Shown: piece after piece, positions 1,345-34,831 of the stretch | Numbering within the stretch: the first letter of the stretch is position 1 | How the letters are laid out: every line of letters begins with the position of its first letter | Origin: a virus | Direction: 5' to 3' (one strand) | Virus record (IMG/VR): IMGVR_UViG_3300012984_000016 | Location: 1 to 64,000 of that record | DNA: 64,000 nt | Translations under genes and position numbers: made by a program | The notes under the pieces: generated by a model | What the model saw: the letters and a program-made list of their open reading frames with translations, nothing else | What the model was told of the DNA's origin: nothing | Databases searched by the model: none

Positions 1345-1375
1345 ACATCCAGACCTACTGCAAGGAGACCGTACC

Positions 1376-6999: not shown

Positions 7000-7439
7000 C
7001 AGTTGTTCACCGCCGCCTGCACGAGGTCGTAGAACTCCACGGCCCGCGCCTCGGCGTCCTCGTACGAGATGTCGGTGGTCCCACGCAGCGGAGGCGTGAT
7101 GCCGTACTTCCAACGAATGGTCTCGCGGTCACCAGCCGGAGCGAGCGAAGCCTCGTACATCTTGTTGGGCTGCTTCTGCTCCATGACCCACACGTACAGC
7201 GCCTTGAAGATTCCTTCGTCGCGGCGGTTCGGGATGGTCCACAGCATCATCGTGGTGAGGCAGGTCTTCACGCACTCCAGGCACGGGGTGCCCCGCAGTC
7301 CGTGGAAGTAGAAGAACGACACCACGTTGTTGCCGGGGTCGATCGCCACTGCCACCTCAGCCGTGGGGTCGATGGACGTTGAGGTCTGCTTCTCTTCGTA
7401 CGTCAGGAACCGGAACTCGGTACCAGCGTGGCCGCTCAT
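6999..7439 (-). CDS. putative GNAT-like acyltransferase
   Basis: 146 aa; MLWTIPNRRDEGIFKALY resembles GNAT motif A (h-V-x-P-x-x-R-x-x-G-I-x-x-x-L). Confidence 0.45.
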   Translation of the reverse strand: MSGHAGTEFRFLTYEEKQTSTSIDPTAEVAVAIDPGNNVVSFFYFHGLRGTPCLECVKTCLTTMMLWTIPNRRDEGIFKALYVWVMEQKQPNKMYEASLAPAGDRETIRWKYGITPPLRGTTDISYEDAEARAVEFYDLVQAAVNN

Positions 7440-15391: not shown

Positions 15392-16651
15392 CTATGGCCT
15401 AGTGCCGCCGTTAATGTTGATCGTGATCGACAGGCTCACGGTCGGCCCACCCTCGACGCTCGCGGGGAGGGTCACGGAGAACGGCTCCAGCGTCGCCTGG
15501 GCGGCTTCTCCCTGCTCGCCAGCCTCGGGGCTAGGCTCCACGGCGGCTTCGGCCTCCTCGTCCGTCTCCAGGTCGCTGAGTGCCTCGGAGGTCTCCTCCG
15601 GCGACGGAGGCTCGGGCGTGAGGCGCGGGCCGTTGATGAACTCGACCTCGCCCACCACGTCGGACTCGCAGTACAGCGCGGGCTCGAGAACCGACCGGCG
15701 TTCGAAGTCGTACTTCCGCACGCCCACGGTCTTGTGCCCCTGCCAGATGCGCGTGTACTTGAAGAACTCGCACAGCGTGGACTGGATGTTGCACAGCGAC
15801 AGGTCCAGCGGCTCCCCGTCATGGTCGAGAGGCCGGACGAAGGGCAGGTCGCGTGCTGCGAACTCCTCCCGTTGGTGCGCGTGCAGCCAGCGCATGACCA
15901 TGAGCAGGTTCCGAGGCTTCACGTCGGGTGCGAGCATCGCCCACATACCGCTGCGTGCGCCGGGTCCTGCTTGGGCCCACTGGTTCTGACCGTACGGGAG
16001 CACGGGGTCCGGTCCGGTGAGCAAGTCCACCACGATCTGGTGGGCCAGGAACTCGCCGAGGCCGGGGATGTCCTTGAAGACCTTGAAGATGGTCTGCACG
16101 TCCGGAGACGCCTCGACCCTTCGGTGGTACTCGGGCATCATGTCCGCGATCTTCACGAACAGGCGACCGACGTTCTCGATCTTGTCCTCGCCGCCCTCGT
16201 CGTTGTACCCCGCCACACGGTAGGCGTCACCGAAGACCTTGAACACGTCGGAGTCCTGCTCGCGGAGGACCTTGATGAACACGTCCACGTCGTAGTCGTC
16301 CACGGTGGATGCGACCAGCCGGTGCGTGGGCGGCTGGGATCCCATGAGACGGTACATCACGACGTTGAACATCTTGTCCAGGTCGGAGTAGTCGGCGTTC
16401 TCCACGATGGATGACACGACGTACTGCGTGCCGGGATCCAACTCGCGGTAGTTGTTGGTGATGAACTCGGCCTGCAGGATCGGGTCCTGAGTCCAGGGCC
16501 ACTCGCGCTGCATGCACACACGCCGGAACCACACGGCTTGACGTTCGGCCACGAACCGCCAGTACAGATCGTACTGGGTGGGGTCGAAGCAGGTGATGTC
16601 GAAGTCCTTCTCGGCGACGTACCGCTTGACCGAGTCCGTGGCCTCTGTCAT
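15392..16651 (-). CDS. 5-hmdU DNA kinase-family protein (aGPT-Pplase1, helical domain)
   Basis: FVAERQAVWFRR..WPWTQDPIL..FITNNYRELD, GLGEFLAHQIVVDL, GPGARSG, IQSTLCEFFKY. Confidence 0.8.
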   Translation of the reverse strand: MTEATDSVKRYVAEKDFDITCFDPTQYDLYWRFVAERQAVWFRRVCMQREWPWTQDPILQAEFITNNYRELDPGTQYVVSSIVENADYSDLDKMFNVVMYRLMGSQPPTHRLVASTVDDYDVDVFIKVLREQDSDVFKVFGDAYRVAGYNDEGGEDKIENVGRLFVKIADMMPEYHRRVEASPDVQTIFKVFKDIPGLGEFLAHQIVVDLLTGPDPVLPYGQNQWAQAGPGARSGMWAMLAPDVKPRNLLMVMRWLHAHQREEFAARDLPFVRPLDHDGEPLDLSLCNIQSTLCEFFKYTRIWQGHKTVGVRKYDFERRSVLEPALYCESDVVGEVEFINGPRLTPEPPSPEETSEALSDLETDEEAEAAVEPSPEAGEQGEAAQATLEPFSVTLPASVEGGPTVSLSITININGGTRP

Positions 16652-17031
16652 TTCTTGCCCTTCTTCTTCTTACGCCCCTTGCTAGCCTTGGGCGGCTTGG
16701 GCTTCGGAGGGGGCGGTGTCTTCGGAGACGGACCGTGGCCCGCCACTGCTCCCTTTGTGTAGTGCGGCTTCCACTTCTTGACAGAAGCCTCCACCTTGTG
16801 TTCCTTCTCAAGCGCGGACACCTTGCGCTCCTCGCGGGCGACATCGAAGTCCGGGTCCATAGTCTTGCGTGTCTTCTTCCAGGCCTCGTAAATCCTCCCC
16901 ATACCGGTCTGGCGCTTCTCAGGAGACATGGCGTCGTCCTCGTCGAACACCGCGTCAGCCGTGGAGAAGAACTCCAGCAGGGGACCGGTGGCCGCGATGA
17001 GATCGTCGACCCTGCGGTCAGCCTTGGGCAT
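16648..17031 (-). CDS. hypothetical protein with basic C-terminus
   Basis: coupled ORF, K/P-rich tail. Confidence 0.6.
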   Translation of the reverse strand: MPKADRRVDDLIAATGPLLEFFSTADAVFDEDDAMSPEKRQTGMGRIYEAWKKTRKTMDPDFDVAREERKVSALEKEHKVEASVKKWKPHYTKGAVAGHGPSPKTPPPPKPKPPKASKGRKKKKGKK

Positions 17032-17425
17032 CGAGAGTTCCCTTGAACCGCTCCGCTGCCTGAGCCACGCCCTTGAGCGAAGCCACCATCGCCTGCGATG
17101 CCTCATGCTTGGCAATGTCCTTCCGTGCTGCCTTGCGGATCCGACGCTCCTGCGCCGGAGTCAGCGGACGCCCACCGTTCTGCTCGATGTAGTGAGCGAT
17201 GCGATCCTCAGCGGACAGCGGAGCCGGGGCTGTGCCGCCCGAGCCGTTGATGATGGAACGGAGGTAGCGGTCGTGCGCCTCCTGTCCCTCGAACTCCTTG
17301 CGGTCGAAGCCGACCGGAGTACGGGGCGGGGGTGCGGGCCGGTTCACGGTGGGTCGGGAGTTGCGTGCGTACTCCTCCATGAGCGGCTTGACCTCGTCAG
17401 GCGCGGGCTCGCGGACCTCTGTCAT
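17018..17425 (-). CDS. hypothetical protein
   Basis: GGAGG RBS, LTPAQERRIRK motif. Confidence 0.6.
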   Translation of the reverse strand: MTEVREPAPDEVKPLMEEYARNSRPTVNRPAPPPRTPVGFDRKEFEGQEAHDRYLRSIINGSGGTAPAPLSAEDRIAHYIEQNGGRPLTPAQERRIRKAARKDIAKHEASQAMVASLKGVAQAAERFKGTLDAQG

Positions 17426-18309
17426 GCTGCCTCCTCGAATGCCTTCATGGCCTCGGCCCACACCTCGTCGATCGAGGTGAAGCCCTTGTACGCCTTGCGC
17501 TGCAACTTCTCATCGGACAACTTCTGGACGTGGCACACCTTGTAGAACTGGCAAGTGTCCGCCATGCTCGAACCCAACTTGCAGTCGGGGTGCATGGGAG
17601 GCATGCGCCGCTTCTTCAGATGCGCGTGCTGTTCCTTGAGCCAGGCGACCGCTGACTTCCAGTGGCCGGTGTCGAAGCCCACCGCGAAGCACTTGGTACG
17701 CTGCGTGTCCTTGCAGTCGTACAGCAGGATGCCGTCCTCGATCCCCTTGGCCTTCATGTAAGCCAAGAGTTGGCGGACCGCGTCGTCCTTCGGTTCGTCC
17801 TCGCGGTTGATCCAGTCGAAGCCGCGACGGTTGATGCCCTTGATGTCGATGACGTACAACTTGCCGTGGATGAGCAAGGTCACGTCGAGGTTGCCAGCGA
17901 CATGCCACTCGTCGAGGTGGACGAAGTACTCGATGTCGATGACCTTGAACTTCTCGGGGTCTCCGAACACCGCCTCCATGTCACGGAACAGTGCCTGCCA
18001 CTTGTGGTGTCTCCAGTTGCCGTCGTCGAACAGCAACTCCTTGTCGGGGTTGACCTTGCGCGAGCCCTTGTACCCCAGGAACTTGAGGATCGCCTGGCGG
18101 TCGCATCGGCCGATGGACGACGGGGAGAAGCGACCACCCGGACGGGCCCGCGCCACCATGGAGATCTCATGCGAGCGCACCCGGCCCTTGGCCTTCGGGG
18201 TGTCGCGGATGATCATGTACTCATCGATCAGTGGGCGCAGCGGATCGAGTTCCTTGCTGTGTAGACGCTTGACCATGTCAGCCAGCATCTTGCTGTCGCC
18301 TGGGGTCAC
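17422..18309 (-). CDS. Cas4-like PD-(D/E)XK exonuclease
   Basis: SPSSIGRC, GNWRH, GNLD...IDIK, QLLAYM, C-terminal Cys cluster. Confidence 0.8.
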   Translation of the reverse strand: MTPGDSKMLADMVKRLHSKELDPLRPLIDEYMIIRDTPKAKGRVRSHEISMVARARPGGRFSPSSIGRCDRQAILKFLGYKGSRKVNPDKELLFDDGNWRHHKWQALFRDMEAVFGDPEKFKVIDIEYFVHLDEWHVAGNLDVTLLIHGKLYVIDIKGINRRGFDWINREDEPKDDAVRQLLAYMKAKGIEDGILLYDCKDTQRTKCFAVGFDTGHWKSAVAWLKEQHAHLKKRRMPPMHPDCKLGSSMADTCQFYKVCHVQKLSDEKLQRKAYKGFTSIDEVWAEAMKAFEEAA

Positions 18310-18803
18310 TCAGGATCACCCTTGTAGTCGCGGAGGTTGATGGGGTGGTTCGCTGCGAGGTAATCCTTGAAGTTGATGAAGCCGTCCTCGGTCCAGTAGC
18401 CCCAGGACTTGGTGCGCTTGCCGACGAACACCAGGGTCCAGGTGTCGGGCTTGATGGAGATGATCCGGTGCGCGTCCTGCTTGCTCATCTTGTGGAACGA
18501 CAGCCAGCCGTGAGTCTTCTTCACAGCAGGTCGGAGCGCACCCTCACGGCGCTCGGTGTGCAGGACCTCGTCGTACCCGCCGCGCACCACCAGGGACCAG
18601 AAGTTGAAGGGGTGGTCGTGCGGGTCCGGGTCATGGTCGGGCTGGTGGATGTGGTGAAGGAACAGCGCGAACCAAGGGGTCTGGATGAGACGGTGGCGAC
18701 GGAGGTACAGCACGTCCATCTCGTTCTCATCCCAGCACATGATGTCCTGGACCTTCATGAAGGACCAGCGACCACCGGAGGTCGGGTTGAACTTCTTCGT
18801 CAT
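18306..18803 (-). CDS. cupin-like protein
   Basis: LHHIHQPD...HDHPFNFWSLVVRGGYDE...HRI..WTLVF. Confidence 0.65.
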   Translation of the reverse strand: MTKKFNPTSGGRWSFMKVQDIMCWDENEMDVLYLRRHRLIQTPWFALFLHHIHQPDHDPDPHDHPFNFWSLVVRGGYDEVLHTERREGALRPAVKKTHGWLSFHKMSKQDAHRIISIKPDTWTLVFVGKRTKSWGYWTEDGFINFKDYLAANHPINLRDYKGDPE

Positions 18804-19117
18804 GGCGTGTACCTCTCGATCACAACCGTCAGGCCGGTGCCCGCGAACTCAATGATCATACGAGGTTCGCGACCGTGCGTCAGCGCGTCCTTCTCGATGG
18901 CCAGGAACTCCTCGGCGCTGATCCGCCAGGACGCCTTCATCGTGGTCTTGAGTTGGTCCAGGTACTCGGGGCCCTTCACGTCCTGTGGGGCCCGCCTGCT
19001 GCTCCCGGACCCCGGCTGGACCCCGCCGCCTACCTCGCGTGCGTGGCGCTGCTCCTGGGCCTTGCTGCGGGCGTTGTTGTCCTTGCCGGGACGATCCCAC
19101 CACCCGGGCTTGCTCAT
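18800..19117 (-). CDS. small PD-(D/E)XK nuclease, resolvase-like
   Basis: QE..HAR..GG.VQPGSGS....DV......QLKTT. Confidence 0.65.
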   Translation of the reverse strand: MSKPGWWDRPGKDNNARSKAQEQRHAREVGGGVQPGSGSSRRAPQDVKGPEYLDQLKTTMKASWRISAEEFLAIEKDALTHGREPRMIIEFAGTGLTVVIERYTP

Positions 19118-19296
19118 GGTCCCTGCACGCTGATCGTGCCGGAGGGGTTCGTCTGGACCCCGTCGACGACGATGGTTCCCTTGACCAGTCGCCACGGCTT
19201 GCGTCCGCCATGCTTACACGGGCACGACGGAGGCGACTCGCAGTAGTGCTTGCGGTCACCCCGGTCCGCAGCGTCAGCACACTTCTGGCAGATCAC
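19114..19296 (-). CDS. small Cys-rich protein
   Basis: MICQKC...HYC...CPCKH. Confidence 0.55.
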   Translation of the reverse strand: MICQKCADAADRGDRKHYCESPPSCPCKHGGRKPWRLVKGTIVVDGVQTNPSGTISVQGP

Positions 19297-19694
19297 GCCG
19301 TGCCGCCTGCCGTGTGGTCGTTGACCGCCTGACTCAGGTGGTCAGTCACTGACTTGGTCAGCGAGTCCAGCATCTCCTGCGGGTCCACGCGCGGCTCCGT
19401 GGCGTGGATCGGGCCGACCAGCACACCCAGCGGACCCTGCACCAGCGGCACACCCAGGATGGCAGGGTGCGTGAGTTGGGAGAACGAGAACCCTGGGCGG
19501 TCCATGAAGTGGTTGTCATCCACGATCTTGATCTTGAGCACGTCCATGACATCCTCTGGCACCGACAGCGCCTGGATGGTCCCGATCATGCCCTCACGGA
19601 TGCGCTGCATGATCACGGCGAGTTGACCGATCGCCTGGGCTGCCACCTCCGAGGGGGAGTCCTCGTCACGGTACGGTCGCACGCGGTCAGTCAT
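19293..19694 (-). CDS. hypothetical protein
   Basis: coupled ORF in the operon. Confidence 0.6.
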   Translation of the reverse strand: MTDRVRPYRDEDSPSEVAAQAIGQLAVIMQRIREGMIGTIQALSVPEDVMDVLKIKIVDDNHFMDRPGFSFSQLTHPAILGVPLVQGPLGVLVGPIHATEPRVDPQEMLDSLTKSVTDHLSQAVNDHTAGGTA

Positions 19695-20778
19695 CGTCCT
19701 CGTCCTTGTCCTCGATGATGGTGTCCGGCTCGGCGGTGTTGAAGATGTCAGTCCGCAACTCGTCCGACACCGCTACGTTGCGGAGGAGCCACTTGTGGAA
19801 CTTGTTGCGGGACGACTGCTTCTCTTCTTCGTAGCCGACGACCCACCACTTGCTACCGGACTTCTTGATCAGGCCGGTGCGTCGGCCGAGGTACATCAGG
19901 TCCTCGGTGGCGTCGATGCCACCGTTGATGTAGTCGTACACGAACGTACCCTCGGCCCCGGCGATGGCCGCGCCGGTCTTGTCCTTCTCCACTCGCATGA
20001 GCACGCGGTGCCCCACGGTGGATGCCTTCTTGATCACGTCCCCGGTGTTCGGGTTGATCAACTTGCGCTGGGCCTTGATGTTCTCGGTGCGGTTCAGTTC
20101 GAGCCGGGTGCCTGCGTAGAAGGCCATGGACCGACCACCTGAGGTGGTGGTCTGCTTGGCGAAGGCGGACGCTCCGACGGCCTGTCGCGTCTGGTTGATG
20201 AAGATGATCGCGGAGTCGGTGTTGGCCACCGTCAACTTCCGCAGCGCCTTGCTCATCAACTTCGCCTGCTCCATTCCCATGGAGCGGTCACCCATCGACG
20301 AGTCCACCTCGGAGCGAGGGGACAGGGCTGCGATGGAGTCGATGCCGATCACGTCGTACAGGCCGGAGCGGATCTGGACCTCGGCCATGTCGATGACCTG
20401 CTCAGCATCCTCCTGCTGGATGAGCCGGAGCCGACGCAGGTCGATGCCCGCCTTCTCAGCGAAGCGAGGGTCGAACGTTCCCTCGACATCTGCGAAGCAA
20501 GCCCCGAGCCCGAGCCGCTGGGCGTTGCCCAGGGCGCGGAACGTGAGGTAGGTCTTGCCCACGTTGTAGGAGCCGTACAGTTCGAGGTAGCGGTTGCGCG
20601 CGAGCCCGCCGTCCAGCAGGTAGTCCACTGAGTCGATGCCCGTGGGGATGCGCTGGATCTTGAGGGACGGGTCCGAGCCCAACTTGATTGCACCCGGGAA
20701 CTTCTTGTTGACCTCGTCCATGTGCGCGTCGCGCTTCTGGTCCATGGTCAACTCGGCTGTTGCTGAACGACGGGGCAC
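19687..20778 (-). CDS. recA: RecA-like recombinase
   Basis: IPTGIDSVDYLLDGG, GSYNVGKT Walker A, IDSIAAL, FINQTR, SGGRSMAFYA. Confidence 0.93.
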   Translation of the reverse strand: MPRRSATAELTMDQKRDAHMDEVNKKFPGAIKLGSDPSLKIQRIPTGIDSVDYLLDGGLARNRYLELYGSYNVGKTYLTFRALGNAQRLGLGACFADVEGTFDPRFAEKAGIDLRRLRLIQQEDAEQVIDMAEVQIRSGLYDVIGIDSIAALSPRSEVDSSMGDRSMGMEQAKLMSKALRKLTVANTDSAIIFINQTRQAVGASAFAKQTTTSGGRSMAFYAGTRLELNRTENIKAQRKLINPNTGDVIKKASTVGHRVLMRVEKDKTGAAIAGAEGTFVYDYINGGIDATEDLMYLGRRTGLIKKSGSKWWVVGYEEEKQSSRNKFHKWLLRNVAVSDELRTDIFNTAEPDTIIEDKDEDDD

Positions 20779-20781
20779 GGC

Positions 20782-23700
20782 TCAGTCCTCCCTGGGTACG
20801 TGCTTGATGACCTTGATGCTGGACGCCTTCCCACACGAGAGGTTGAGCCAGCGCGGCTCCCACTCACCGCGACACTGGACAAGTGATCCTACGCCTGCCG
20901 ACCAGTGCTTGCTGGTCTCCGACCACAGCCGGATGTCGAAGTCCTCGACCGGTGACCACCGGATGTTCCAGGTCAGGTATTTCTTACCGGTCTTGGTCTC
21001 GCCCTCGCGGATCTTGGTGATCACTCCGACCAGGCACACGTCCTCGCCCGTGAGCGACTCCTCGGGCAGGACCACCTCACTCTGGTACTTCTCCCGGTAC
21101 TTCTTCATGCGGTCCTTGAACTGCCACTTGAGCAACTCCTCGGTGCGGTGCGGGTCACCAGGCACACCGATGGACTCGAACACTGAGGCTTCAGTCAGGG
21201 TCTTCATGTAGCCCACGTTGTTGACTTCCAGGGACACGTCCTCGACCGACTGGAACCCCTTCTTCGGGCGGTTGTTCATGAGCCGCTCGCCGACCTTGAT
21301 GCCGATGCCAGCGATGTCGGTGAAGCCGAAGCGGATGATCTTCTTCTTGGCATGAGCCGTGGCCAGCGCGTCCGAGGTGTTGATGTCCGGCGGTGCGATC
21401 TTGCCACCGAACTCCATGGCCTCGCGCATGTAGATGTCGCGGCGCTCCGCGTTGTCCTTGTTGTTCGGCACGGTGCGCAGCAGGGCGGTGATGTACTCGA
21501 TGGGGTACATGCACTTGAGCCGAGCGGTCTGGTAGGTGAGCAGGGTGTAGGCCGCTGCGTGCGAGCGGTTGTAGCCGTACCCGGCGTACCCCTCGATCAT
21601 CTTCCAAATCTCCTCGGCGGTCTCCTTCGGGATGCCCGAGGTCTTCTTGCAGCCCTTGATGAACGCGGGGCGCATGGCCTGCATGTCGTCCGACGACTTG
21701 TCCTTGATCGCTTCCTTGATGTCATCCATGCCCGCGTCGTCGAAGCCCGCCAGGGTGCGTCCGAACTCCATGACCTGCTCCTGGTAGAGCACGACGCCCC
21801 ACGTGTCCTCCAGGATCGGCTTGAGGGCCGGGTGTGCGTACTGGATGCCCGCCTTGCCCAGCCGTCGGTTCTTGTTGAAGATGTCGGGGAAGCCCGCGCT
21901 CATGGCACCCGTGCGGTAGAGGCTCGTGATCGAGATGAGGTCCTCGAAGTTCTTCGGCTTCACGTCGCGGCACCCGCGTCGGTTGGCCGGTCCCTCCATC
22001 TGGAACACGCCCGCTGTCTTGCCCTTCGCCAGCATGGCGTAGACCTTGTCATCGCCAGGCTCGTTGTCGGGATCCCAGAAGTCCGGCTCGATGTCCAGCC
22101 CGCGACGTTCCTTGAGAATCTTCAGGCACTCGTCGATGGTGTCCAGGGTGCGGAGGCCGAGGATGTCTTCCTTGAGGAAGCCCATCGCGTCGACGGCCTT
22201 CTTGTCGTACTGACCGATCATCCGCTTGGACGAAGGGATCCAGGCCTCGGGGATCTGCTTGCGGATGTTGGCCGAAGGGTCGGCGATGATGATGCCCGCA
22301 GGGTGAGCAGCGATCTGCTTCTTCAGCCCGCGCAGTTGCATCAGCATGGCGATGACCTCGGGGTAGTCCGCCATGAGTTGCTCAGGGATGAAGGCCTCGC
22401 CGGTCTCCTTGTCTTCGTAGATGCCCTTGTTCAGGTTGATGGCCTCCTGGCGCGGGATGCCGTTGGCGATGGCCACCGCGTTGAATGCTGACTTTGCACG
22501 GAGGTGACCGAAGGCTGCCACCGACATGGTGTTCTCAACACCGTACTTGTCGATGACGTAGTCGAAGACTTCACCGCGACGGAGTTGCGAGAAGTCCGAG
22601 TCGATGTCGGGCATCTTCGGGCGGGCCGGGTTGAGGAACCGCTCGAACAGCAGGGTGTACTTGATCGGGTCGCAGCGGTGGATGTCCAGCAGGTATCCCA
22701 CAAGGGTGCCAGCCGCCGACCCTCGACCGGGGCCGACCCGGATGCCCACGGACCGTGCGTAGGTGATGATGTCCGCAGTGATCAGCATGAAGTGCGCGAT
22801 CTTCGCCTGCTTGTACACCTTGAGTTCTGACTTGAGCCGGGAGGTGTACCGCTCGTCACCGTCCAACCCGAGTTCCTTGAGCCGCGTCTTGCACATGCGC
22901 TTCATCTCGGCGTCGGCATCTTCCACGCCGGGGAACTTGGGGATCTGGAACGTCTTGGACTCCCACGCCGGGATGCGTGTGTAGGAGTCCTTGGCGATCT
23001 GCAGGTTGGTGGCCACGCCGTTCTTCCAGTGCTTGGCACCGTAGGGCGACATGGTCTGCTTCATCTCGTCGTACGACTTCAGCCAGTAGCCCTCGCCCTC
23101 GAACCGGAACCGGTTGGGGTCCGTCACGTCCGAGGCGGTCTGGATCGCCAGCAGGGTGTCGTGCGCCATGGCGTCGTGCTCGTCCGCGAAGTGCGGGTCG
23201 TTCGTGATGACGTGCTGCAGGTTGTACTTCTTGGCCATGGCGATCAGCGCCGTGTTCAACCGGAGGTCGAAGGGCGTGTCGTGGTGCATGGTCTCGATGT
23301 AGTAGTGGGGGAAGGTCTCGCGCCACCACAGCAACTCGGTGACCGCCCGCTCCTCTGCGTCGTCCTCGTCGCTCAGGAGGGCCTTGGAGAGCGCAGAACC
23401 CGCGCACCCAGACAGGACGGTCAGATGCTTCGCGTCGTCTCCCAGGGCCTCCAGGATGCCTCGGTCGACCAGCGGCTTGAAGTAGAAGTTGCGGTGGCTC
23501 TCGGAGGACAGTTCCGACAGCACCTCGTACCCTCGTGCCCCACGGGCCAGGATGCTGATGTGCCGCTGGTCCTTCTGGCCCTGCGCCTTGTCCGCCCGGT
23601 GGCTCGCCACGTCCGGGACGAAGTAGAACTCCTCGCCGATGATCGGCTCCACGCCTTCCTTGCGGCACGCCTTGTAGAACTCAGGTGCGCCGGGGAGCCA

Positions 23701-23832
23701 GCCGTGGTCGGTCAGTGCCAGTGCAGAGAACCCCAGAGACCCTGCTTTCGCAGCGTACCCGGCGACTGTAGCCGCACCATCCAGCATGCTGTTGTCGCTG
23801 TGGTTATGCAAGTGGATGAAGTCGCTAGGCAC
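20782..23832 (-). CDS. dnaE: DNA polymerase III alpha subunit (family C)
   Basis: PHP domain HLHNHS..SMLDG, GPGRGSAAG, PDIDSDF, KEDILGL, YQEQ, GYNRSHA. Confidence 0.95.
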   Translation of the reverse strand: MPSDFIHLHNHSDNSMLDGAATVAGYAAKAGSLGFSALALTDHGWLPGAPEFYKACRKEGVEPIIGEEFYFVPDVASHRADKAQGQKDQRHISILARGARGYEVLSELSSESHRNFYFKPLVDRGILEALGDDAKHLTVLSGCAGSALSKALLSDEDDAEERAVTELLWWRETFPHYYIETMHHDTPFDLRLNTALIAMAKKYNLQHVITNDPHFADEHDAMAHDTLLAIQTASDVTDPNRFRFEGEGYWLKSYDEMKQTMSPYGAKHWKNGVATNLQIAKDSYTRIPAWESKTFQIPKFPGVEDADAEMKRMCKTRLKELGLDGDERYTSRLKSELKVYKQAKIAHFMLITADIITYARSVGIRVGPGRGSAAGTLVGYLLDIHRCDPIKYTLLFERFLNPARPKMPDIDSDFSQLRRGEVFDYVIDKYGVENTMSVAAFGHLRAKSAFNAVAIANGIPRQEAINLNKGIYEDKETGEAFIPEQLMADYPEVIAMLMQLRGLKKQIAAHPAGIIIADPSANIRKQIPEAWIPSSKRMIGQYDKKAVDAMGFLKEDILGLRTLDTIDECLKILKERRGLDIEPDFWDPDNEPGDDKVYAMLAKGKTAGVFQMEGPANRRGCRDVKPKNFEDLISITSLYRTGAMSAGFPDIFNKNRRLGKAGIQYAHPALKPILEDTWGVVLYQEQVMEFGRTLAGFDDAGMDDIKEAIKDKSSDDMQAMRPAFIKGCKKTSGIPKETAEEIWKMIEGYAGYGYNRSHAAAYTLLTYQTARLKCMYPIEYITALLRTVPNNKDNAERRDIYMREAMEFGGKIAPPDINTSDALATAHAKKKIIRFGFTDIAGIGIKVGERLMNNRPKKGFQSVEDVSLEVNNVGYMKTLTEASVFESIGVPGDPHRTEELLKWQFKDRMKKYREKYQSEVVLPEESLTGEDVCLVGVITKIREGETKTGKKYLTWNIRWSPVEDFDIRLWSETSKHWSAGVGSLVQCRGEWEPRWLNLSCGKASSIKVIKHVPRED

Positions 23833-23863
23833 GATTCCTCAATCCTCTCTGGGGTTCTCTGGC

Positions 23864-25054
23864 TTACTCGGACGGGACGTGCGATGCGAACATCCAGTCC
23901 AGGACTTCGGTGGGAACCTTCTCACCCGTGATCGGGTGCGGGCCACGGAGATGGTCGACCACGTCCTCGTGCCCCTTCTTGTGCCAGCGGTGGTAGTAGT
24001 AGAACCGGGCCTGAGCGAGGCCGAGCACCGGGTCCATGCAGCCGAGGAGGGTGTGCGCCGCCTTGAGGTCGAACCCCTTCTTGTACAGGGTGTGGGCCGC
24101 GAACGCCTCCAGCAGGCCGATCCAGGACACCGGCACTTCCTGGTGCGCGTTGAACAGCAGGGACTCGACCTGATCCCACTCGCACGTGCGGAGTGCCATC
24201 TCGTACGAGCGGACCGACGCGAGCACCTCGTCCGTGAGGTCGGCGGTCTCCCACGTCCAGTGACCACCGAAGCCCCAGCCGTCCTGCACCGCCTGGTACA
24301 GGTCGAACTCGGCGATGTCCTCGGCCTCCGCGTGGTGGTACTCGTAGGCGTGCAGGGAGTCGGCGACGTGCGTGTACGTGCCGACGGGGATGCCCAGGCG
24401 ACCGGCGATGTACCGCTGCATGGACATCCACTGGATGAAGTTGTAGGGCGTGCCCCACATGACATCGTTGGACCGCAGGATCTGCAGCCAGTCCAGGCGA
24501 CCGTCCCGGATCATCAGGTGCGCCATGAGGTTACAGGCGCGGTCCTTGGTCTCGCGGCGGACCTCCTCGAAGGCGTAGTTGTCAGTGTCCGAGGGGACGC
24601 GCATCGGCTGGTACGCCCGGTCGTGCGACGGCAGCGTGATGGTGAGCACGGCCTGGCGGGTCTCGGGGTCCTCGGTAAGCAGGCGGACCACGTCCTCGAT
24701 CTGGTCGTGACCGTGGGCGTAGCGCAGGCGGTAGCCGTACGCCGCGTTGAAGGTCTCACCGTCGTCGGAGTAGTCACCGATCTTGGAGTTGTAGTGCTTG
24801 AGCATCTCCACGTCGTTCTGCCCACCCAGGATCCACAGGACCTCGGCGAAGGCGAAGGTGACGTTGACCGGTCGGCCGAAGGCGGTGACCACCGGGCGCA
24901 GCGGGTCGTCGATGATGATCGTGGCGGGGTGGATCTCAAGGGTGGGTGCCACCCGAGAGGGGACCTGCTTGCCGCCGCCCATGACCGCCGCTACCGCAGC
25001 GGGGTACACGACGTTGGCGTTCGGCCCCTTGATGATCGCTTCGTTGGTGGTCAC
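23864..25054 (-). CDS. thymidylate synthase-fold enzyme, probable dUMP hydroxymethylase
   Basis: AYGYRLR, DPETRQAV, catalytic Cys (RACN), RSNDVMWGTPYN, SLHAY. Confidence 0.8.
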   Translation of the reverse strand: MTTNEAIIKGPNANVVYPAAVAAVMGGGKQVPSRVAPTLEIHPATIIIDDPLRPVVTAFGRPVNVTFAFAEVLWILGGQNDVEMLKHYNSKIGDYSDDGETFNAAYGYRLRYAHGHDQIEDVVRLLTEDPETRQAVLTITLPSHDRAYQPMRVPSDTDNYAFEEVRRETKDRACNLMAHLMIRDGRLDWLQILRSNDVMWGTPYNFIQWMSMQRYIAGRLGIPVGTYTHVADSLHAYEYHHAEAEDIAEFDLYQAVQDGWGFGGHWTWETADLTDEVLASVRSYEMALRTCEWDQVESLLFNAHQEVPVSWIGLLEAFAAHTLYKKGFDLKAAHTLLGCMDPVLGLAQARFYYYHRWHKKGHEDVVDHLRGPHPITGEKVPTEVLDWMFASHVPSE

Positions 25055-25698
25055 TTGGAACCCTCCGGGTAGGTGAAGCCGCGCCGCGTGAGGTGCTCAG
25101 CGATGAACGCGGTGGTCTCGCCCCGGGGAAGGTGCGGGACCAGGATGGTGATGTCCTCGTGGCGCTGGGCCAGGTACTCGTAGTTCTCCAGCACCTGCTT
25201 GTTGTTGCTCTTGTCCTTGGCGAACGGCTCCAGGAACATGAACACGATGTCGGGCATGCACCCTTGCGTGGGCAGCCGAGCGAGGTCGATGAACTCGTCC
25301 GCTGTCATCTGGGTTCGCATGTCCTTGACCCACCCGTAGGCGAAGGTCGAGAACCAGTTGCGATCCAGGAACACCGACTCGGCGTCGGAGTGGAGCCGGG
25401 GTACGATGACGTTCTCGTACATCTCACAGTGTGCCGCAAGGTGCAGGAACTGCCGGGTGAGCGGGAGGTGCTTCTTCCAGTTCACGTCCTCGGTGAGGCC
25501 GTAGATCTTGGCACCGAGTTCCGAGCCGCCGCTGGGCGAGTGCGTGAACACCGGCTTGCCGGAGTACAGGGGCTCGCCCTGCTCGGGCGCGTACACGGCC
25601 CGCTCGAAGCGGTCCATCTGGGTTGACTTGCCTGTGGCGTCCAGCCCCTCGAACACGATGAAGGAGGAGGGCTTGAGGATCAGCGGCAACTTGAACAC
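25051..25698 (-). CDS. tmk: thymidylate/dNMP kinase
   Basis: FEGLDATGKST P-loop, LDRNWFSTFAY, PDIVF. Confidence 0.85.
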   Translation of the reverse strand: MFKLPLILKPSSFIVFEGLDATGKSTQMDRFERAVYAPEQGEPLYSGKPVFTHSPSGGSELGAKIYGLTEDVNWKKHLPLTRQFLHLAAHCEMYENVIVPRLHSDAESVFLDRNWFSTFAYGWVKDMRTQMTADEFIDLARLPTQGCMPDIVFMFLEPFAKDKSNNKQVLENYEYLAQRHEDITILVPHLPRGETTAFIAEHLTRRGFTYPEGSK

Positions 25699-25776: not shown

Positions 25777-26463
25777 TCAGGCTGCCTTCTTCTTCTTGCC
25801 CTTCTTCTTCTTGGACTTCTCGAGCCCGGTGGCCTGCTCGTCGATGTCGTCCTTGGCGTCGAGCGCCGAGGTGTCGGGCATCTCCGAGCCGAAGTAGCGA
25901 CGGGCCTCCTCGTCGACGTACTTCTGCAGGTCGATCGGCTTCTTGTCACCGATGTCCTTGATCGGCTTGAGGTCCGAGGAGGACACGTCGTACGAGACCG
26001 GCTGCGTGGGGTACTTGGCCACGTCGTAGGCCTTCTTGACGAACTTCTCGGGAGCCGCCGAGTAGCGGTAGAACAGGCGCGTGGAGAGGTCCTTCGGACC
26101 CTCCAGGATCATGACCTTCTTCTCCTTGAAGTTCCACACGTTGGCGGCGAACCGGTAGGAGGTCTTGCTGATGTTCTGGTCCTCGTCGAGGCAGAGCGGG
26201 CAGTTGTCACCGAGGCACGGCACGTAGTGCCACTTGGTGTCCTTCCACACGTGCTGCTCGAACTCCAGGAACCCCTGGGGGTTGTCCGGGTTCATCAGGC
26301 ACTGGATCGACACGGAGTCGCCCTGGCGCATGCGGATCGCGAGGCCGAAGTTGGACGAGCCCTTCGACTCCATGCGGTTCTTGTTCAGGCCGCTGAACGT
26401 CTTGACGGACAGCCCACCCTTGGCCTTGGCCTGGACGGTGGTCCCGCCCTTGTTCTTTGCCAT
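25777..26463 (-). CDS. putative single-stranded DNA-binding protein (gp32-like)
   Basis: EQH...PCLGDNCPLC...FAANV...YD, charged C-tail, replication context. Confidence 0.6.
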   Translation of the reverse strand: MAKNKGGTTVQAKAKGGLSVKTFSGLNKNRMESKGSSNFGLAIRMRQGDSVSIQCLMNPDNPQGFLEFEQHVWKDTKWHYVPCLGDNCPLCLDEDQNISKTSYRFAANVWNFKEKKVMILEGPKDLSTRLFYRYSAAPEKFVKKAYDVAKYPTQPVSYDVSSSDLKPIKDIGDKKPIDLQKYVDEEARRYFGSEMPDTSALDAKDDIDEQATGLEKSKKKKGKKKKAA

Positions 26464-26497
26464 GCGTCTCCTCGGTTCCTGGCCCTTGTGTGGCCGG

Positions 26498-26701
26498 TCA
26501 GGTCTTGTTGGCTTGGAGGTCCTTGACCAGGTCCTCGACCGCTTCCATGTCCTCAGCGTCGAGGCCCGCACCGTAGATGCGCAGGTCGCCGTCCTTGAAC
26601 ACGAACGCTACGAATGGCGCTTCCTGCATGTCCGTCAGCAACCGCTTCGCACGCTCGATGGAGAGGCGCGACACGGGGGAGACAGTCTCAGTAGTAGCCA
26701 C
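26498..26701 (-). CDS. hypothetical protein
   Basis: GAAGGT RBS, in operon. Confidence 0.55.
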   Translation of the reverse strand: MATTETVSPVSRLSIERAKRLLTDMQEAPFVAFVFKDGDLRIYGAGLDAEDMEAVEDLVKDLQANKT

Positions 26702-28290: not shown

Positions 28291-28582
28291 GACCGAACTG
28301 CCCGTCTCTGTAGTTGGTGCGTGGACCACGAGTGGACCAGCCACCCTTGGGGATCTTGACTCCAGCGCGCTCGCACTCGCCAGGTCCGGGTACGGTGCAG
28401 AACGCATCGTGGTGGTGGTGCCGCCAGGTCGGGCACTCTTCGGTGCCGGTGCCGTGGTGGCTTCCTGAGTGGCCCCACTGGTCGCGCCCTGCCTTGAGAG
28501 CAGCCTGACGGCACGCGCGGTACTCGTCGATCCTGCCAGCGTTGACAGCCTCGTCGAAGGTCAGCGACTCGATGGGAGTCAT
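28283..28582 (-). CDS. hypothetical His/Cys-rich protein
   Basis: ATGA coupling to the NADAR stop; CPTWRHHHHDAFC. Confidence 0.55.
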   Translation of the reverse strand: MTPIESLTFDEAVNAGRIDEYRACRQAALKAGRDQWGHSGSHHGTGTEECPTWRHHHHDAFCTVPGPGECERAGVKIPKGGWSTRGPRTNYRDGQFGRA

Positions 28583-29043
28583 CGCCACTCCAGGTCGGTG
28601 AGTTCTGCACGGCGGGCCATGAGCAAGGTGCCGAGCCAGTTCAGGCCCTCCCAGCGCATCTTGGTGTTGTTCCAGGTCATGCCCCAGAACTTGTCGCCCC
28701 AGGTGTTGCCTTCGATCAGCCCGTAGTCCAAGGTGTTCAGGACCAACTTGGTGCTGAGGTCGTGAGGCTTCTCCGACATGCCAGGGAACTTGTGGTCCAG
28801 CGCAGTGCGCATCACTTCGAGCCGGTAGTAGTTCCAGTCCCCGCGCATGGTGCACCGGGCCCCGAGACGCTTCGCTTCCTTGGGGGTAGCCGCCTTCCGA
28901 ATCTCCTTGGCCTGCTGCTTCTTCTTCGCCTTCATCGACTGGAAGTAGTGCTCGACCGTGGGGTAGTGCAGCCCGTCGATCTTCATCGGGCTCGGGTGGA
29001 AGTTGCTGAGGAAGGCGTACTCCCCGGTGAAGCGCGTGATCAT
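28579..29043 (-). CDS. NADAR (YbiA-like) family hydrolase
   Basis: FLSNFHPSP, YPTVEHYFQSMK, EAKRLG, KF, LIEGNTWGDKFWG, GLNWLGTLLM..R. Confidence 0.9.
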   Translation of the reverse strand: MITRFTGEYAFLSNFHPSPMKIDGLHYPTVEHYFQSMKAKKKQQAKEIRKAATPKEAKRLGARCTMRGDWNYYRLEVMRTALDHKFPGMSEKPHDLSTKLVLNTLDYGLIEGNTWGDKFWGMTWNNTKMRWEGLNWLGTLLMARRAELTDLEWR

Positions 29044-33872: not shown

Positions 33873-34109
33873 ATGACCACTGGAAGATCGTTGAAGCAGT
33901 GGATCGCCGAGGAGAAGGGTCCGTACCAGGACCACATGACCTCCGGGGAACTCTGCATCTACCTCAACATCAACCCGCGCACCCTGCGTGAGTGGAAGAA
34001 GAAGCCGTGGTTCCCACCACCCGAGGTCATCACAGCCAAGGGTTGGGGACTGTGGTCACCCGATCAACAAACGGCTCTGCTGCGCAGGCGGCTCGGAGAG
34101 GACAGGTAG
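33873..34109 (+). CDS. small HTH (MerR/Xis-like) DNA-binding protein
   Basis: MTSGELCIYLNINPRTLREWKK..FPPP...LWS. Confidence 0.7.
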   Translation: MTTGRSLKQWIAEEKGPYQDHMTSGELCIYLNINPRTLREWKKKPWFPPPEVITAKGWGLWSPDQQTALLRRRLGEDR

Positions 34110-34831
34110 TGGCGAAGAAGAAGTACGAAGCCAAGGACATCAGGAAGCCCCTGATCTTCAAGGTCCGCAAGGGCACCTCGGACGAGAAGTCCATCGCCGA
34201 GGTCGTGACCCGCAGGGGTTACGGTCGCTACAACTTCACGCCGCGCCCCGGTGAGCAGTGGATCGACCTCGGTGCGAACATCGGCGCGTTCGCAGTGTGG
34301 GCAGCCGCTCACGGTGCCAACGTCGCTGCGTACGAGCCCGAGCCCGGGTGCTACGAGCGCCTGGTGATCAACGCCGGTCTCAACGGCAAGACGATCCAGG
34401 ACCGCATCACTCCGATCCAGTCCGGCGTTGCTGCTGACGCTCGCAAGAAGAAGATGCACATGTCCGTGAACTCCGCTCGCGGCAACGTGTGGCGGTCGTC
34501 CATGTTCAAGGACTGGCAGGGCGGCGAGTCCATCGACGTTCCGGTCACCACCGTCGAGGGTCTCTGGACCCCTGACAACTGCATCAAGATGGACATCGAG
34601 GGCATGGAGATGCCGATCCTCGAACGGTTCGCTGACAAGCCCGTCAAGCGGCTGGTGTTCGAGTGGTCGTTCGACATCGACCCGTCGCTCGACCGCTTCC
34701 GCCAGGTCATCAAGACCCTGCAGGAGACCTACCCCAACGTCAAGGGCGGCAACGTCCCGGACGACGCGCCTGAGGACAAGTGGCAGCCCCAGTGGTTCCC
34801 GCCGTGCCGACTGGTGTACTGCTGGTCATGA
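34109..34831 (+). CDS. FkbM-family SAM-dependent methyltransferase
   Basis: IDLGANIGAF, AYEPEP, IKMDIEGME. Confidence 0.88.
   Translation: MAKKKYEAKDIRKPLIFKVRKGTSDEKSIAEVVTRRGYGRYNFTPRPGEQWIDLGANIGAFAVWAAAHGANVAAYEPEPGCYERLVINAGLNGKTIQDRITPIQSGVAADARKKKMHMSVNSARGNVWRSSMFKDWQGGESIDVPVTTVEGLWTPDNCIKMDIEGMEMPILERFADKPVKRLVFEWSFDIDPSLDRFRQVIKTLQETYPNVKGGNVPDDAPEDKWQPQWFPPCRLVYCWS

What the first reader, a model, noticed from the sequence alone, without database searches (positions are those of the whole stretch)
15392..25698. Thymidine hypermodification pathway with no recognisable final transferase
Seen: a TS-fold enzyme with RSND..WG..N (Asn at the dUMP-specificity position; RSND as in phage hydroxymethylases), coupled to a dNMP kinase and next to the phage's own DnaE, plus an aGPT-Pplase1/5-hmdU DNA kinase-family gene at 15392-16651 with an acidic tail. 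Established: in phages such as M6, ViI and phiW-14, 5-hmdU is incorporated, phosphorylated on DNA, then substituted by an amino acid:DNA transferase. I see no such transferase in the window. Inference: this actinophage carries 5-hmdU or 5-phosphomethyl-dU, or a new derivative made with other enzymes here (FkbM methyltransferase, cupin, GNAT/ligase, amidoligase).
Basis: partly seen in the sequence, partly recalled or inferred. Interest (0 to 1): 0.8.

Follow-up and report, generated by a model that had tools for sequence, protein, structure and literature searches.

The report
Actinophage hydroxymethyl-uracil module lacking DNA kinase
An uncultured soil actinophage carries a thymidylate-synthase-like hydroxymethylase, a thymidylate-kinase-like kinase and an uncharacterised DNA-glycosylase-fold enzyme that probably put a modified thymine into its DNA; the gene read as the "DNA kinase" is really a cousin of the "missing" transferase, and the same trio is the core of a widespread bacterial operon of a type shown to defend against phages.

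Summary
15392-16651(-) is a stand-alone aGPT-Pplase1/HMUDK_hel protein (Pfam E 4e-54) with an acidic tail. 23864-25054(-) is a TS-fold enzyme nearer to hydroxymethylases than to ThyA, with Asn at the uracil-specificity site. It is translationally coupled to a thymidylate-kinase-family gene (25051-25698) and sits just before DnaE.

The interpretation needs correcting. HMUDK_hel is not the kinase. The characterised 5-hmdU DNA kinase is a P-loop protein (PF18748). That kinase and the clade-2 transferase (PF18724) are both undetectable in the 74.3-kb record, and a positive control on M6 worked. Pplase1 is itself the HhH-fold paralogue of the transferases (best fold match PaMx11 gp46, Z 10.8), and its invariant Cys294 aligns with their catalytic Cys.

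In relatives the TMK-like kinase lies next to Pplase1 or is fused to it. That fusion, with the same TS homolog, forms a conserved operon in at least 594 places in bacterial genomes. A published E. coli defence system (DS-4/NTTI) has the same domain set.

Best reading: a kinase-less 5-hmdU module whose final base is unknown. Earlier follow-ups in this scan described many other kinase-less Pplase1 modules on other DNA. The TS + Pplase1 pairing is already published. New here are the TMK link and the actinophage setting.

The parts
25051..25698 (-). Thymidylate-kinase-family NMP kinase (215 aa), predicted 5-hm-dUMP kinase. It is the only small P-loop kinase in the genome.
   Evidence: Pfam Thymidylate_kin E 1.9e-9. 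The family profile aligns full length with Aquifex TMK 2pbr, E 7e-22; the positions F/R/Q of 'LLFEASR...AYQ' are H/H/G here. Walker A scan. 30% identity, E 3e-13, to the N-terminal domain of the TMK-Pplase1 fusion P0071. Adjacent to Pplase1 in L085, L086 and L011.
23864..25054 (-). TS-fold pyrimidine hydroxymethylase homolog (396 aa, long C-terminal extension), predicted dUMP 5-hydroxymethylase.
   Evidence: Best solved relative is MilA CMP 5-hydroxymethylase, E 5.4e-25, against E>=4.8e-10 for classical TS. Asn ('GTPYN') sits where MilA has Asp ('GAVSD'). M6 gp58 E 2e-30. TS homologs of the bacterial operon score up to E 4e-50. 'PC-N' and 'RSND' are conserved.
20782..23832 (-). Phage DnaE-type replicase, directly downstream of the hydroxymethylase.
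   Evidence: DNA_pol3_alpha E 1e-61, PHP, finger, HHH_6.
15392..16651 (-). Stand-alone aGPT-Pplase1 / HMUDK_hel protein (419 aa): HhH glycosylase-like catalytic domain (about residues 20-330), acidic linker, conserved terminal beta-hairpin.
   Evidence: Pfam E 4.4e-54. AF2 pLDDT 84.7. VIA-align Z 10.8, rmsd 4.2, 230 residues aligned to PaMx11 gp46 5-PmdU glycinyltransferase 8z2n. Invariant D209, C294, E295, K298. hhalign puts C294 on C247 of M6 gp51.
16648..17115 (-). Small protein with a Lys-rich tail; its end overlaps the Pplase1 start by 4 nt. Possible partner; function unknown.
   Evidence: Overlap of coordinates. Sequence. A homolog (E 9e-13) lies directly upstream of Pplase1 in the syntenic locus L084.
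33992..34831 (+). FkbM-family SAM methyltransferase, a candidate tailoring enzyme (weak link).
   Evidence: Pfam Methyltransf_21 E 1.7e-11. Homologs are adjacent or translationally coupled to Pplase1 in L087, L088 and L013. This subfamily is rare in cultured phages (6 records).

Best explanation
The window holds a split three-gene 5-hydroxymethyl-dU module.

Step 1 (inferred from family and residues): the TS-fold enzyme converts dUMP to 5-hm-dUMP. The coupled TMK-family kinase phosphorylates it to the diphosphate. Host enzymes and the phage's own DnaE then put 5-hmdU into phage DNA, probably replacing only part of the T, because no dTTPase, dUTPase or dCMP deaminase was found.

Step 2 (inferred from fold, conserved Cys and gene linkage): the stand-alone aGPT-Pplase1 acts on 5-hmdU. 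It is an HhH glycosylase-fold paralogue of the amino-acid/diamine:DNA transferases and keeps their Cys nucleophile. It would flip the base out, attack C6, and exchange or remove the C5 substituent. It would do so without the P-loop 5-hmdU DNA kinase that every characterised pathway uses.

The product is unknown. It could be a substituted thymine, possibly methylated by the FkbM enzyme, or thymine itself.

So the item missing from this genome is the DNA kinase.
For: - Hydroxymethylase type and uracil specificity.
- Coupling of kinase, TS homolog and DnaE.
- The kinase has a complete NMP-kinase fold, altered at positions I recall as contacting the thymine base in classical TMKs.
- No PF18748 and no PF18724 in the 74.3-kb, about 92%-complete record. 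The same PF18748 search finds M6 gp54 and three other kinases.
- The only other P-loop proteins are terminase, RecA and DnaB.
- Pplase1 fold: top structural match is the 5-PmdU glycinyltransferase, Z 10.8 over 230 of 289 residues, followed by QNG1 and HhH glycosylases at Z 8-9.6.
- The invariant motif 'IQSTLC' aligns with 'VETVLC', which ends at the catalytic Cys247 of the transferases (PMC11472151; PMC13458397).
- Linkage: 44 of 86 Pplase1 loci have the TS homolog within 10 kb. L085 and L086 carry the compact cassette kinase -> Pplase1 -> TS. Three metagenomic TMK-Pplase1 fusions and 80 bacterial fusion loci exist.
- Kinase-less genomes are real: 5 Pplase1+TS viral records, 3 of them complete with terminal repeats, have no PF18748, and one complete record also lacks PF18724.
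- Published precedent for the TS + Pplase1 partnership without a kinase: PMC9599517.
Against: - No chemistry was measured. The function of clade-1 Pplase is unknown in the literature, and M6 gp55 was dispensable in vitro.
- The sequence link between Pplase1 and Pplase2 is weak: hhalign E 2e-3, probability 13%, and no PDB hit by profile. A Z of 10.8 for an all-helical protein is below the level at which fold matches are safe (note).
- Hydroxyl is a poor leaving group, so kinase-free substitution has no biochemical precedent.
- About 8% of the genome may be missing. One collection lists an 83,674-bp contig for this protein against the 74,305-bp record.
- No dTTP-exclusion genes were found.
- The complete avoidance of AGCT, a site that contains T, suggests that any T modification does not protect every T-containing site.
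Confidence: 0.5

Rival explanations
1. Nucleotide-level reading: Pplase1 works together with the TMK-like kinase on free 5-hm-dUMP or its diphosphate, not on DNA. A modified dNTP is made before replication, or a nucleotide is destroyed or recycled.
For: - The kinase is a complete NMP kinase and is fused to Pplase1 in many bacteria.
- The bacterial operon also carries purely nucleotide-level enzymes: MazG+MazG_C, a dCTP-deaminase-like protein and Nmad2.
- The closest long relatives of the kinase are MazG-MazG_C-TMK fusions.
- The second-best fold match of Pplase1 is QNG1/DUF2419, which acts on a free nucleoside monophosphate (Z 9.6).
Against: - The HhH 'GLGEFLAHQ' motif and the best fold match are those of DNA-acting enzymes.
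- In many loci Pplase1 neighbours DNA-level enzymes: P-loop 5-HMUDK in 8 loci (2 of them fused), TET-associated glycosyltransferase and SNF2 helicase.
- In this phage Pplase1 lies 7 kb from the kinase, among recombination and repair genes.
Confidence: 0.2
2. Conflict module rather than self-modification: the trio was exchanged with bacterial DS-4/NTTI-like defence operons. In the phage it serves to exclude competing phages, to attack or reprogramme the host's nucleotide pool, or to counter such a defence.
For: - The window's TS homolog is closer to those of the bacterial operon (E up to 4e-50) than to M6 gp58 (2e-30).
- In a quick tree the Pplase1 clade joins the bacterial-fusion clade rather than the M6 clade (SH-aLRT 86).
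- The bacterial operon has XRE/IrrE regulators and often a ThsB-type TIR.
- An E. coli system of TS + dNMP kinase + HMUDK_hel + TIR + Nmad2 was validated as anti-phage (PMC13092281).
- L086 has an integrase next to the trio.
Against: - The window has no TIR, Nmad2, MazG_C, XRE/IrrE or other effector among the ORFs scanned.
- The kinase and TS genes sit inside the replication operon directly before DnaE, the usual place for genes that feed the phage's own DNA synthesis.
- The tree node has only moderate support, and the tree was a quick one.
Confidence: 0.12
3. Canonical pathway, incompletely sampled: a P-loop 5-hmdU DNA kinase and a clade-2 transferase lie on the part of the genome not in the record, or are too divergent to detect.
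For: - CheckV completeness is 92% and the record is linear, without terminal repeats.
- An 83,674-bp contig is listed for the same protein.
- About 20 ORFs of the record have no family assignment.
Against: - Searches at E<=10 with Pfam models and with my own HMMs found nothing, and the control was positive.
- Complete relatives without the kinase exist.
- In characterised phages the kinase, transferase and Pplase1 genes usually cluster, and the neighbourhood here is fully sampled.
Confidence: 0.08
4. Ordinary thymidylate supply: the TS homolog makes dTMP and the kinase makes dTDP, as in many phages. Pplase1 has an unrelated DNA-repair-like role.
For: - TS plus TMK pairs are common phage metabolic genes.
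- The catalytic Cys, the Asn and the folate-site Asp of TS are all present.
- No dTTP-exclusion enzymes were found.
Against: - The enzyme is far closer to a solved hydroxymethylase than to any ThyA.
- It shares the 'RSND' motif and the long C-terminal extension with M6 gp58.
- Its family is persistently linked to Pplase1, which is found in hypermodifying phages and not in SPO1 (PMC5889632).
- The kinase differs from TMKs at positions I recall as base-contacting.
Confidence: 0.07

Closest known systems
Thymidine hypermodification pathways of phages M6, PaMx11, ViI, PhiW-14, SP10 and SH-Ab 15599 (Lee 2018 PMC5889632; Lee 2021 PMC8989533; PMC11472151; PMC13458397)
   Same: TS-fold dUMP hydroxymethylase homolog (M6 gp58, E 2e-30). 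aGPT-Pplase1 homolog (M6 gp55, 26% identity). Genes lie next to the replicase. HhH-fold enzyme with a conserved Cys.
   Different: No P-loop 5-hmdU DNA kinase (PF18748). No clade-2 transferase (PF18724). No PLP, radical-SAM or FAD tailoring enzymes. No HD, dUTPase or dCMP deaminase. A TMK-family kinase is present instead. The host is an actinobacterium and the replicase is DnaE, not PolA.
Kinase-less TS + aG/PT-PPlase1 'partner AMGs' of HTVC023P-type pelagiphages (PMC9599517) and similar uncultured phage modules
   Same: TS homolog and Pplase1 co-occur without a DNA kinase, close to the polymerase. The biochemistry is uncharacterised.
   Different: Those modules often add a glycosyltransferase and a 5'-deoxynucleotidase, and radical-SAM enzymes occur in similar uncultured modules. 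This window has none of these. It has a dedicated TMK-family kinase, and its Pplase1 clade carries an acidic tail with a conserved terminal hairpin.
   Same: The same three catalytic families: TS homolog, NMP kinase and HMUDK_hel. The window's TS and kinase find their best relatives here. The gene order kinase -> Pplase1 -> TS recurs in L085 and L086.
   Different: In bacteria the kinase and Pplase1 are fused and are accompanied by regulators and by Nmad2, MazG_C, dCTP-deaminase-like or TIR genes. In the phage the three genes are separate, spread over 10 kb of a replication operon, and have none of those partners. I did not compare the window's proteins with the DS-4 proteins by sequence. The DS-4 kinase is annotated adenylate-kinase-like, not TMK.
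SPO1/SP8-type hmU phages
   Same: dUMP hydroxymethylase plus a phage dNMP kinase feed 5-hmdUTP to a phage polymerase.
   Different: Those phages replace T completely, using dTTPase/dUTPase, dCMP deaminase and a TS inhibitor. SPO1 has no aGPT-Pplase, and only 6 Bacillus phage records matched Pplase1.

Membership tests
Characterised thymidine hypermodification pathway (5-HMUDK + AADT type) | dUMP hydroxymethylase (TS homolog) supplying 5-hmdU | tested here: met
   Homolog present, of hydroxymethylase type by similarity and residues. Its product was not measured.
Characterised thymidine hypermodification pathway (5-HMUDK + AADT type) | P-loop 5-hmdU DNA kinase (PF18748, M6 gp54 type) | tested here: not met
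   No match at E<=10 in the whole record. My own HMM found none. The positive control worked. Caveat: the record is about 92% complete.
Characterised thymidine hypermodification pathway (5-HMUDK + AADT type) | Clade-2 aGPT-Pplase / amino acid:DNA transferase (PF18724) | tested here: not met
   No match at E<=10. A 26-sequence HMM gave only noise. The same Pfam search finds hits in other records.
Characterised thymidine hypermodification pathway (5-HMUDK + AADT type) | Hypermodified thymidine in virion DNA | not testable with these tools
   Uncultured phage. The public runs holding it are soil metagenomes kept as contigs only.
aGPT-Pplase clade 1 / HMUDK_hel (PF18723) | Match to the family model above the curated cut-off | tested here: met
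   184 bits against a cut-off of 25, E 4.4e-54; 185 bits in the six-frame search.
aGPT-Pplase clade 1 / HMUDK_hel (PF18723) | Helix-hairpin-helix DNA-glycosylase-like fold shared with clade 2 | tested here: met
   AF2 model pLDDT 84.7. VIA-align Z 10.8 to 8z2n, and Z 8-9 to Ogg, EndoIII, AlkA and MutY. Helical fold, so the Z-scores are only moderately strong.
aGPT-Pplase clade 1 / HMUDK_hel (PF18723) | Cys nucleophile equivalent to Cys247 of PaMx11 gp46 / M6 gp51 | tested here: inconclusive
   C294 is invariant in 32 sequences and aligns with C247 in hhalign, but at E 2e-3 and probability 13%. No residue-level structural superposition was available.
5-hmdU DNA kinase (as the Pfam name HMUDK_hel suggests) | P-loop / Walker A nucleotide-binding kinase domain | tested here: not met
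   No Walker A motif in the 419-aa protein. Pfam finds only the helical domain.
Pyrimidine hydroxymethylase branch of the TS fold | Catalytic Cys, Asn (uracil) or Asp (cytosine) at the specificity site, and closer to hydroxymethylases than to ThyA | tested here: met
   'ACN' Cys. 'GTPYN' Asn against 'GAVSD' in MilA. MilA E 5e-25 against ThyA E>=5e-10.
Thymidylate kinase family (PF02223) | P-loop, DR(Y/H) motif and full-length NMP-kinase architecture | tested here: met
   'FEGLDATGKST' and 'DRNWFSTFAYG'. The family profile aligns over 190 residues with TMK 2pbr, E 7e-22. Substrate not tested.
Bacterial TS + NMP kinase + HMUDK_hel conflict operon (DS-4/NTTI type) | The three core enzyme families | tested here: met
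   published domain table.
Bacterial TS + NMP kinase + HMUDK_hel conflict operon (DS-4/NTTI type) | Accessory or effector genes (TIR, Nmad2, MazG_C, DCD) and XRE/IrrE regulators; one compact operon | tested here: not met
   None found among the ORFs of the record that were scanned with Pfam. The genes are spread over 10 kb.

The most novel reading that the evidence does not exclude
Clade-1 aGPT-Pplase is a kinase-independent 5-hmdU-processing enzyme. Using its invariant Cys-Glu pair, it turns 5-hmdU directly (without phosphate activation) into thymine or a substituted thymine. It could then be the long-sought activity that converts leftover 5-hmdU to T in SP10, PhiW-14, M6 and ViI ('still unknown', PMC5889632). 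With the hydroxymethylase and the TMK-like kinase it would form a minimal three-gene unit that both phages (self-modification) and bacteria (DS-4-type defence) deploy.
Probability: 0.15. Interest if true: 0.85.

Novelty: new variant of a known kind. Interest (0 to 1): 0.55.

Why it matters
Every thymidine hypermodification pathway worked out so far starts with a P-loop DNA kinase and a clade-2 transferase. The role of the clade-1 paralogue, which accompanies the hydroxymethylase far more widely, is unknown.

This phage offers a stripped-down case: hydroxymethylase, a dedicated NMP kinase and Pplase1, with no other recognised modification enzyme. Relatives carry the three genes as one 3-kb cassette or with two of them fused. 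That is a convenient system for finding out what Pplase1 does.

The same core in hundreds of bacterial genomes, and in a validated E. coli defence system, links phage DNA modification to bacterial immunity. If Pplase1 acts without a kinase, it also adds a new route to base-modified DNA.

For annotation, the result is a warning: the Pfam name 'HMUDK_hel' should not be read as 'DNA kinase'.

Tried and rejected
- **Complex prediction** of Pplase1 (1-335) with the TMK-like kinase: no verdict, score 0.00. This is not evidence either way.
I could not fetch the long contigs of the closest relatives (P0006, P0029, P0035, P0064) or the 83.7-kb version of this contig.
- **Megablast of the region against phages**: no match. 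tblastn of the kinase against phages: no match.
- **Metagenome scans**: P0001 alone found nothing. A1 was too diverse to give search patterns. A2 gave only 6 short loci.
- **Genome contigs with the close family A2**: none. Only the fusion-type alignment A4 found bacterial loci.
- **The genome search 'relatives'** is not available for a virus record.
- **Profile of the Pplase1 family against PDB sequences**: no hit at E<=10. hhalign against a single Pplase2 sequence found only the HhH motif. Global-mode hhalign gave a meaningless result.
- **Foldseek** alone gave no hit at E<=0.001.
- **Weak hit of ORF 19293-19694 to the M6 dCMP-deaminase-like gp65** (E 0.013): rejected. The protein has no HAE/PCxxC motifs.
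- **Idea that the FkbM enzyme parallels DpdM**, the dPreQ1 methyltransferase: rejected. DpdM is a DUF3109 protein.
- **Amidoligase, GATase, AMP-binding enzyme and cupin as pathway members**: no homolog within 10 kb of Pplase1 in 86 loci. No support, but not excluded.
- **ESM Atlas** for ORFs 2526-3335 and 3724-5052: nothing usable.
- **Sequencing runs**: no RNA holder listed. The DNA holders are three 2018 soil metagenomes kept as contigs.
- **Iyer et al. 2013** (PMC3763556) is not held in the library.

Full report
**What is there.**
The window is the first 64 kb of a 74,305-bp linear IMG/VR virus record, estimated about 92% complete. It is held in 2018 soil metagenomes. With 64% G+C, a WhiB gene, a sigma factor and a DnaE replicase, it is an actinophage-type genome.

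From about 30.3 kb down to 13.8 kb, one minus-strand arm reads in this order:
- DnaB
- NADAR
- primase
- sigma factor
- an SSB-like Zn protein
- TMK-like kinase (25698-25051)
- TS homolog (25054-23864; its start overlaps the kinase stop by 4 nt)
- DnaE (23832-20782)
- RecA
- three small ORFs
- Cas4-like exonuclease
- two small ORFs
- HMUDK_hel protein (16651-15392; its start overlaps the preceding ORF)
- WhiB
- RuvC

**The 'kinase-family' gene is not a kinase.**
Scanning the M6 cluster with Pfam shows how the names map onto proteins:
- gp51 = ADDT (PF18724, the glycine:DNA transferase)
- gp54 = HMUDK_HMUD1 (PF18748, the P-loop 5-hmdU DNA kinase)
- gp55 = HMUDK_hel (PF18723, formerly aGPT-Pplase1)

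Lee et al. showed that gp54 plus gp51 suffice in vitro and that gp55 is dispensable (PMC8989533). The Pfam name presumably reflects SP10 gp186, where the helical domain is fused to the kinase and the kinase domain alone is active.

The window protein matches only the helical domain and has no Walker A motif. Across the whole record, neither PF18748 nor PF18724 is detectable at E<=10, nor with HMMs I built from loci. The same PF18748 search finds M6 gp54 and three other kinases. The only P-loop proteins in the genome are terminase, RecA, DnaB and the TMK-like kinase.

**What the Pplase1 protein looks like.**
- Seventy-three relatives were found, all carrying PF18723 only or with a kinase domain.
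- D209, C294, E295 and K298 are invariant in 32 sequences.
- The AlphaFold model is confident (pLDDT 84.7).
- Foldseek alone is weak.
- VIA-align ranks the PaMx11 gp46 5-PmdU glycinyltransferase first: Z 10.8, rmsd 4.2, 230 residues aligned, spanning both proteins. Next come the queuosine-monophosphate glycosylase QNG1 (Z 9.6) and classical HhH glycosylases (Z 8-9).
- A profile-profile alignment with 26 clade-2 sequences is statistically weak (E 2e-3). It lines up the HhH 'G-[FL]-G' motif and ends exactly on 'IQSTLC' against 'VETVLC'. That places C294 on the Cys247 that attacks C6 of the pyrimidine in the transferases (PMC11472151; PMC13458397).

So the protein is best seen as an uncharacterised paralogue of the 'missing' transferase.

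The window's own clade adds an acidic linker and a conserved terminal 'ITIN' beta-hairpin.

**The TS homolog and the kinase.**

TS homolog:
- Its best solved relative is MilA CMP 5-hydroxymethylase (E 5e-25, residues 48-274). Classical thymidylate synthases match only a 70-residue core at E>=5e-10.
- Where MilA has Asp (cytosine), the phage enzyme has Asn (uracil). 'RSND' and the catalytic Cys are conserved with M6 gp58.

Kinase:
- It is a full-length thymidylate-kinase fold (family profile against 2pbr, E 7e-22).
- The positions that are F, R and Q in the TMK motifs 'LLFEASR' and 'AYQ' are nearly invariant H, H and G in this family.
- From my recollection of TMK structures these positions contact the thymine base, so an altered base preference is plausible. 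That step is inference.
- A complete NMP-binding architecture argues that this is a nucleotide kinase (hm-dUMP kinase) rather than a DNA kinase.

**Gene linkage in relatives.**
- Among 86 Pplase1 loci from viral and metagenome collections, 44 have the TS homolog within 10 kb. Only 8 have an M6-gp54-like kinase, and in 2 of those it is fused to Pplase1.
- The closest informative relatives (41-43% identity), L085 and L086, carry a compact cassette: TMK-like -> Pplase1 -> TS.
- L084 is syntenic with the window: Cas4 exonuclease, small basic ORF, Pplase1, WhiB, RuvC.
- L087, L088 and L013 have an FkbM methyltransferase adjacent or coupled to Pplase1.
- Other recurrent neighbours are PolA, SNF2 helicase, TET-associated glycosyltransferase and radical-SAM/SPASM enzymes.
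- Five Pplase1+TS viral records, three of them complete with terminal repeats, lack PF18748. One complete genome lacks PF18724 as well.

The kinase-less class is therefore real. It is already in print for pelagiphages (PMC9599517). Earlier follow-ups in this scan described it repeatedly on other DNA.

**A bacterial counterpart.**
- TMK-like::HMUDK_hel fusions exist in metagenomes: P0071, P0144 and P0146.
- Searching one genome per prokaryotic species with them gave at least 594 confirmed places across many phyla.
- In the 80 loci fetched, a conserved operon appears: XRE-HTH (46 loci), IrrE/M78 peptidase (54), an unknown 275-aa protein (57), the fusion (80) and the TS homolog (55).
- Variable additions are Nmad2 (23), MazG+MazG_C (23), a dCTP-deaminase-like protein (21) and a ThsB-type TIR (20).
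- The window's TS homolog matches these (E up to 4e-50) better than it matches M6 gp58.
- The best long relatives of the kinase are MazG-MazG_C-TMK fusions.
- In a quick ML tree the window's Pplase1 clade joins the bacterial-fusion clade (SH-aLRT 86), away from the M6 clade.
- DefensePredictor validated an E. coli system, DS-4 'NTTI', as anti-phage. It consists of thymidylate synthase, a dNMP kinase, an HMUDK_hel protein, TIR and Nmad2 (PMC13092281).
- I did not compare the DS-4 proteins with the window by sequence, because I had them only as printed text.

**How it most likely works.**

Shown:
- the families, the residues, the coupling, the absences and the linkage.

Inferred:
- dUMP -> 5-hm-dUMP (TS homolog) -> diphosphate (TMK-like kinase) -> incorporation by DnaE.
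- Pplase1 then processes 5-hmdU, most likely in DNA, by Cys-C6 chemistry without prior phosphorylation.
- The product is unknown: a substituted thymine, perhaps methylated by the FkbM enzyme, or thymine itself.

Substitution of T is probably partial, because no dTTPase, dUTPase, dCMP deaminase or HD gene was found.

I put this at 0.5. Rivals:
- Pplase1 acts on free nucleotides (0.2).
- The trio is a conflict module related to DS-4 (0.12).
- The canonical genes lie on the unsampled 8% (0.08).
- Plain dTMP supply (0.07).

**Candidate extra enzymes.**
Only FkbM has comparative support. Its subfamily is rare in cultured phages. In cyanophage MED4-117 it sits between a DNA methylase and a DpdA-like transglycosylase, another DNA-modification setting.

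The amidoligase + GATase pair (290-2512) belongs to classes that Lee et al. saw near hypermodification genes. Here, however, it lies 13 kb away on the other strand and has no counterpart near Pplase1 in 86 loci.

**Limits.**
- No chemistry was done.
- The record is incomplete.
- The clade-1/clade-2 alignment is weak by sequence.
- Fold Z-scores for helical proteins are only moderately informative.

**Verdict.**
This is a new variant of a known but uncharacterised kind (kinase-less TS + Pplase1). Its value lies in the minimal gene set, the TMK link and the bacterial counterpart.

Noticed in passing
whole record (window 1-64000 and on to 74305): AGCT is completely absent: 0 observed against 214 expected from a Markov model. 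CCGCGG 0 against 43, GGCGCC 0 against 24, GCCGGC 1 against 40, GACGTC 1 against 29, CTAG 30 against 57. This is strong restriction-site avoidance, and it includes a site that contains T.
   Followed up: partly
L138-L217 (bacterial genome loci): A widespread bacterial operon: XRE-HTH, IrrE/M78 peptidase, an unknown 275-aa protein, a TMK::HMUDK_hel fusion and a TS homolog. Variable additions are Nmad2, MazG+MazG_C, a dCTP-deaminase-like protein and a ThsB-TIR. At least 594 places across many phyla. It has the same domain set as the validated E. coli defence system DS-4/NTTI.
   Followed up: partly
window 15395-15649 (C-terminal 85 residues of the Pplase1 protein): An acidic low-complexity linker is followed by a conserved terminal 'h-x-ITIN-h' beta-hairpin. 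It is found only in the window's own clade of Pplase1 and may be a docking element. The preceding ORF (16648-17115) ends in a Lys-rich tail and is conserved upstream of Pplase1 in L084.
   Followed up: no
window 28579-29043 (-): A NADAR-domain protein (E 2e-26) lies between DnaB and primase. To my knowledge NADAR proteins reverse ADP-ribosylation of DNA, so it may be a counter-defence against DarT-type systems.
   Followed up: no
window 290-2512 (+): Amidoligase_2 (E 9e-35) and a class-II glutamine amidotransferase (E 6e-15) sit side by side at the left end of the record. The two ORFs that follow have no recognisable family.
   Followed up: partly
window 6013-8758 (-): An AMP-binding (ANL) adenylating enzyme (7436-8758, E 4e-33) is chained by overlaps to ORFs, one of which (6013-7113) matches minor-tail-protein PHROGs. 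An adenylating enzyme among virion genes is unusual.
   Followed up: no
L136:6965-7666 (cyanophage MED4-117) and L137:6989-7687 (pelagiphage HTVC112P): The nearest cultured-phage homologs of the window's FkbM methyltransferase lie between a DNA methylase and a DpdA-like queuine tRNA-ribosyltransferase (MED4-117), and next to ParB-like and SNF2/DnaJ-like genes (HTVC112P). This FkbM subfamily may be a DNA-modification enzyme.
   Followed up: no
L086:1617-5858: A tyrosine integrase with an Arm-binding domain lies directly upstream of the TMK-like -> Pplase1 -> TS cassette. The cassette may travel on an integrative element.
   Followed up: no
window 25777-26571 (-): A 264-aa ORF has a 'C-x4-C-x2-C' cluster and a Lys-rich C-terminus. 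It lies directly upstream of the kinase gene and has no Pfam or PHROG match. It looks like a phage SSB, but this was not tested.
   Followed up: no
whole record: The protein collection lists an 83,674-bp contig for the Pplase1 protein, but a 74,305-bp contig for the kinase. A longer assembly of this phage probably exists.
   Followed up: no
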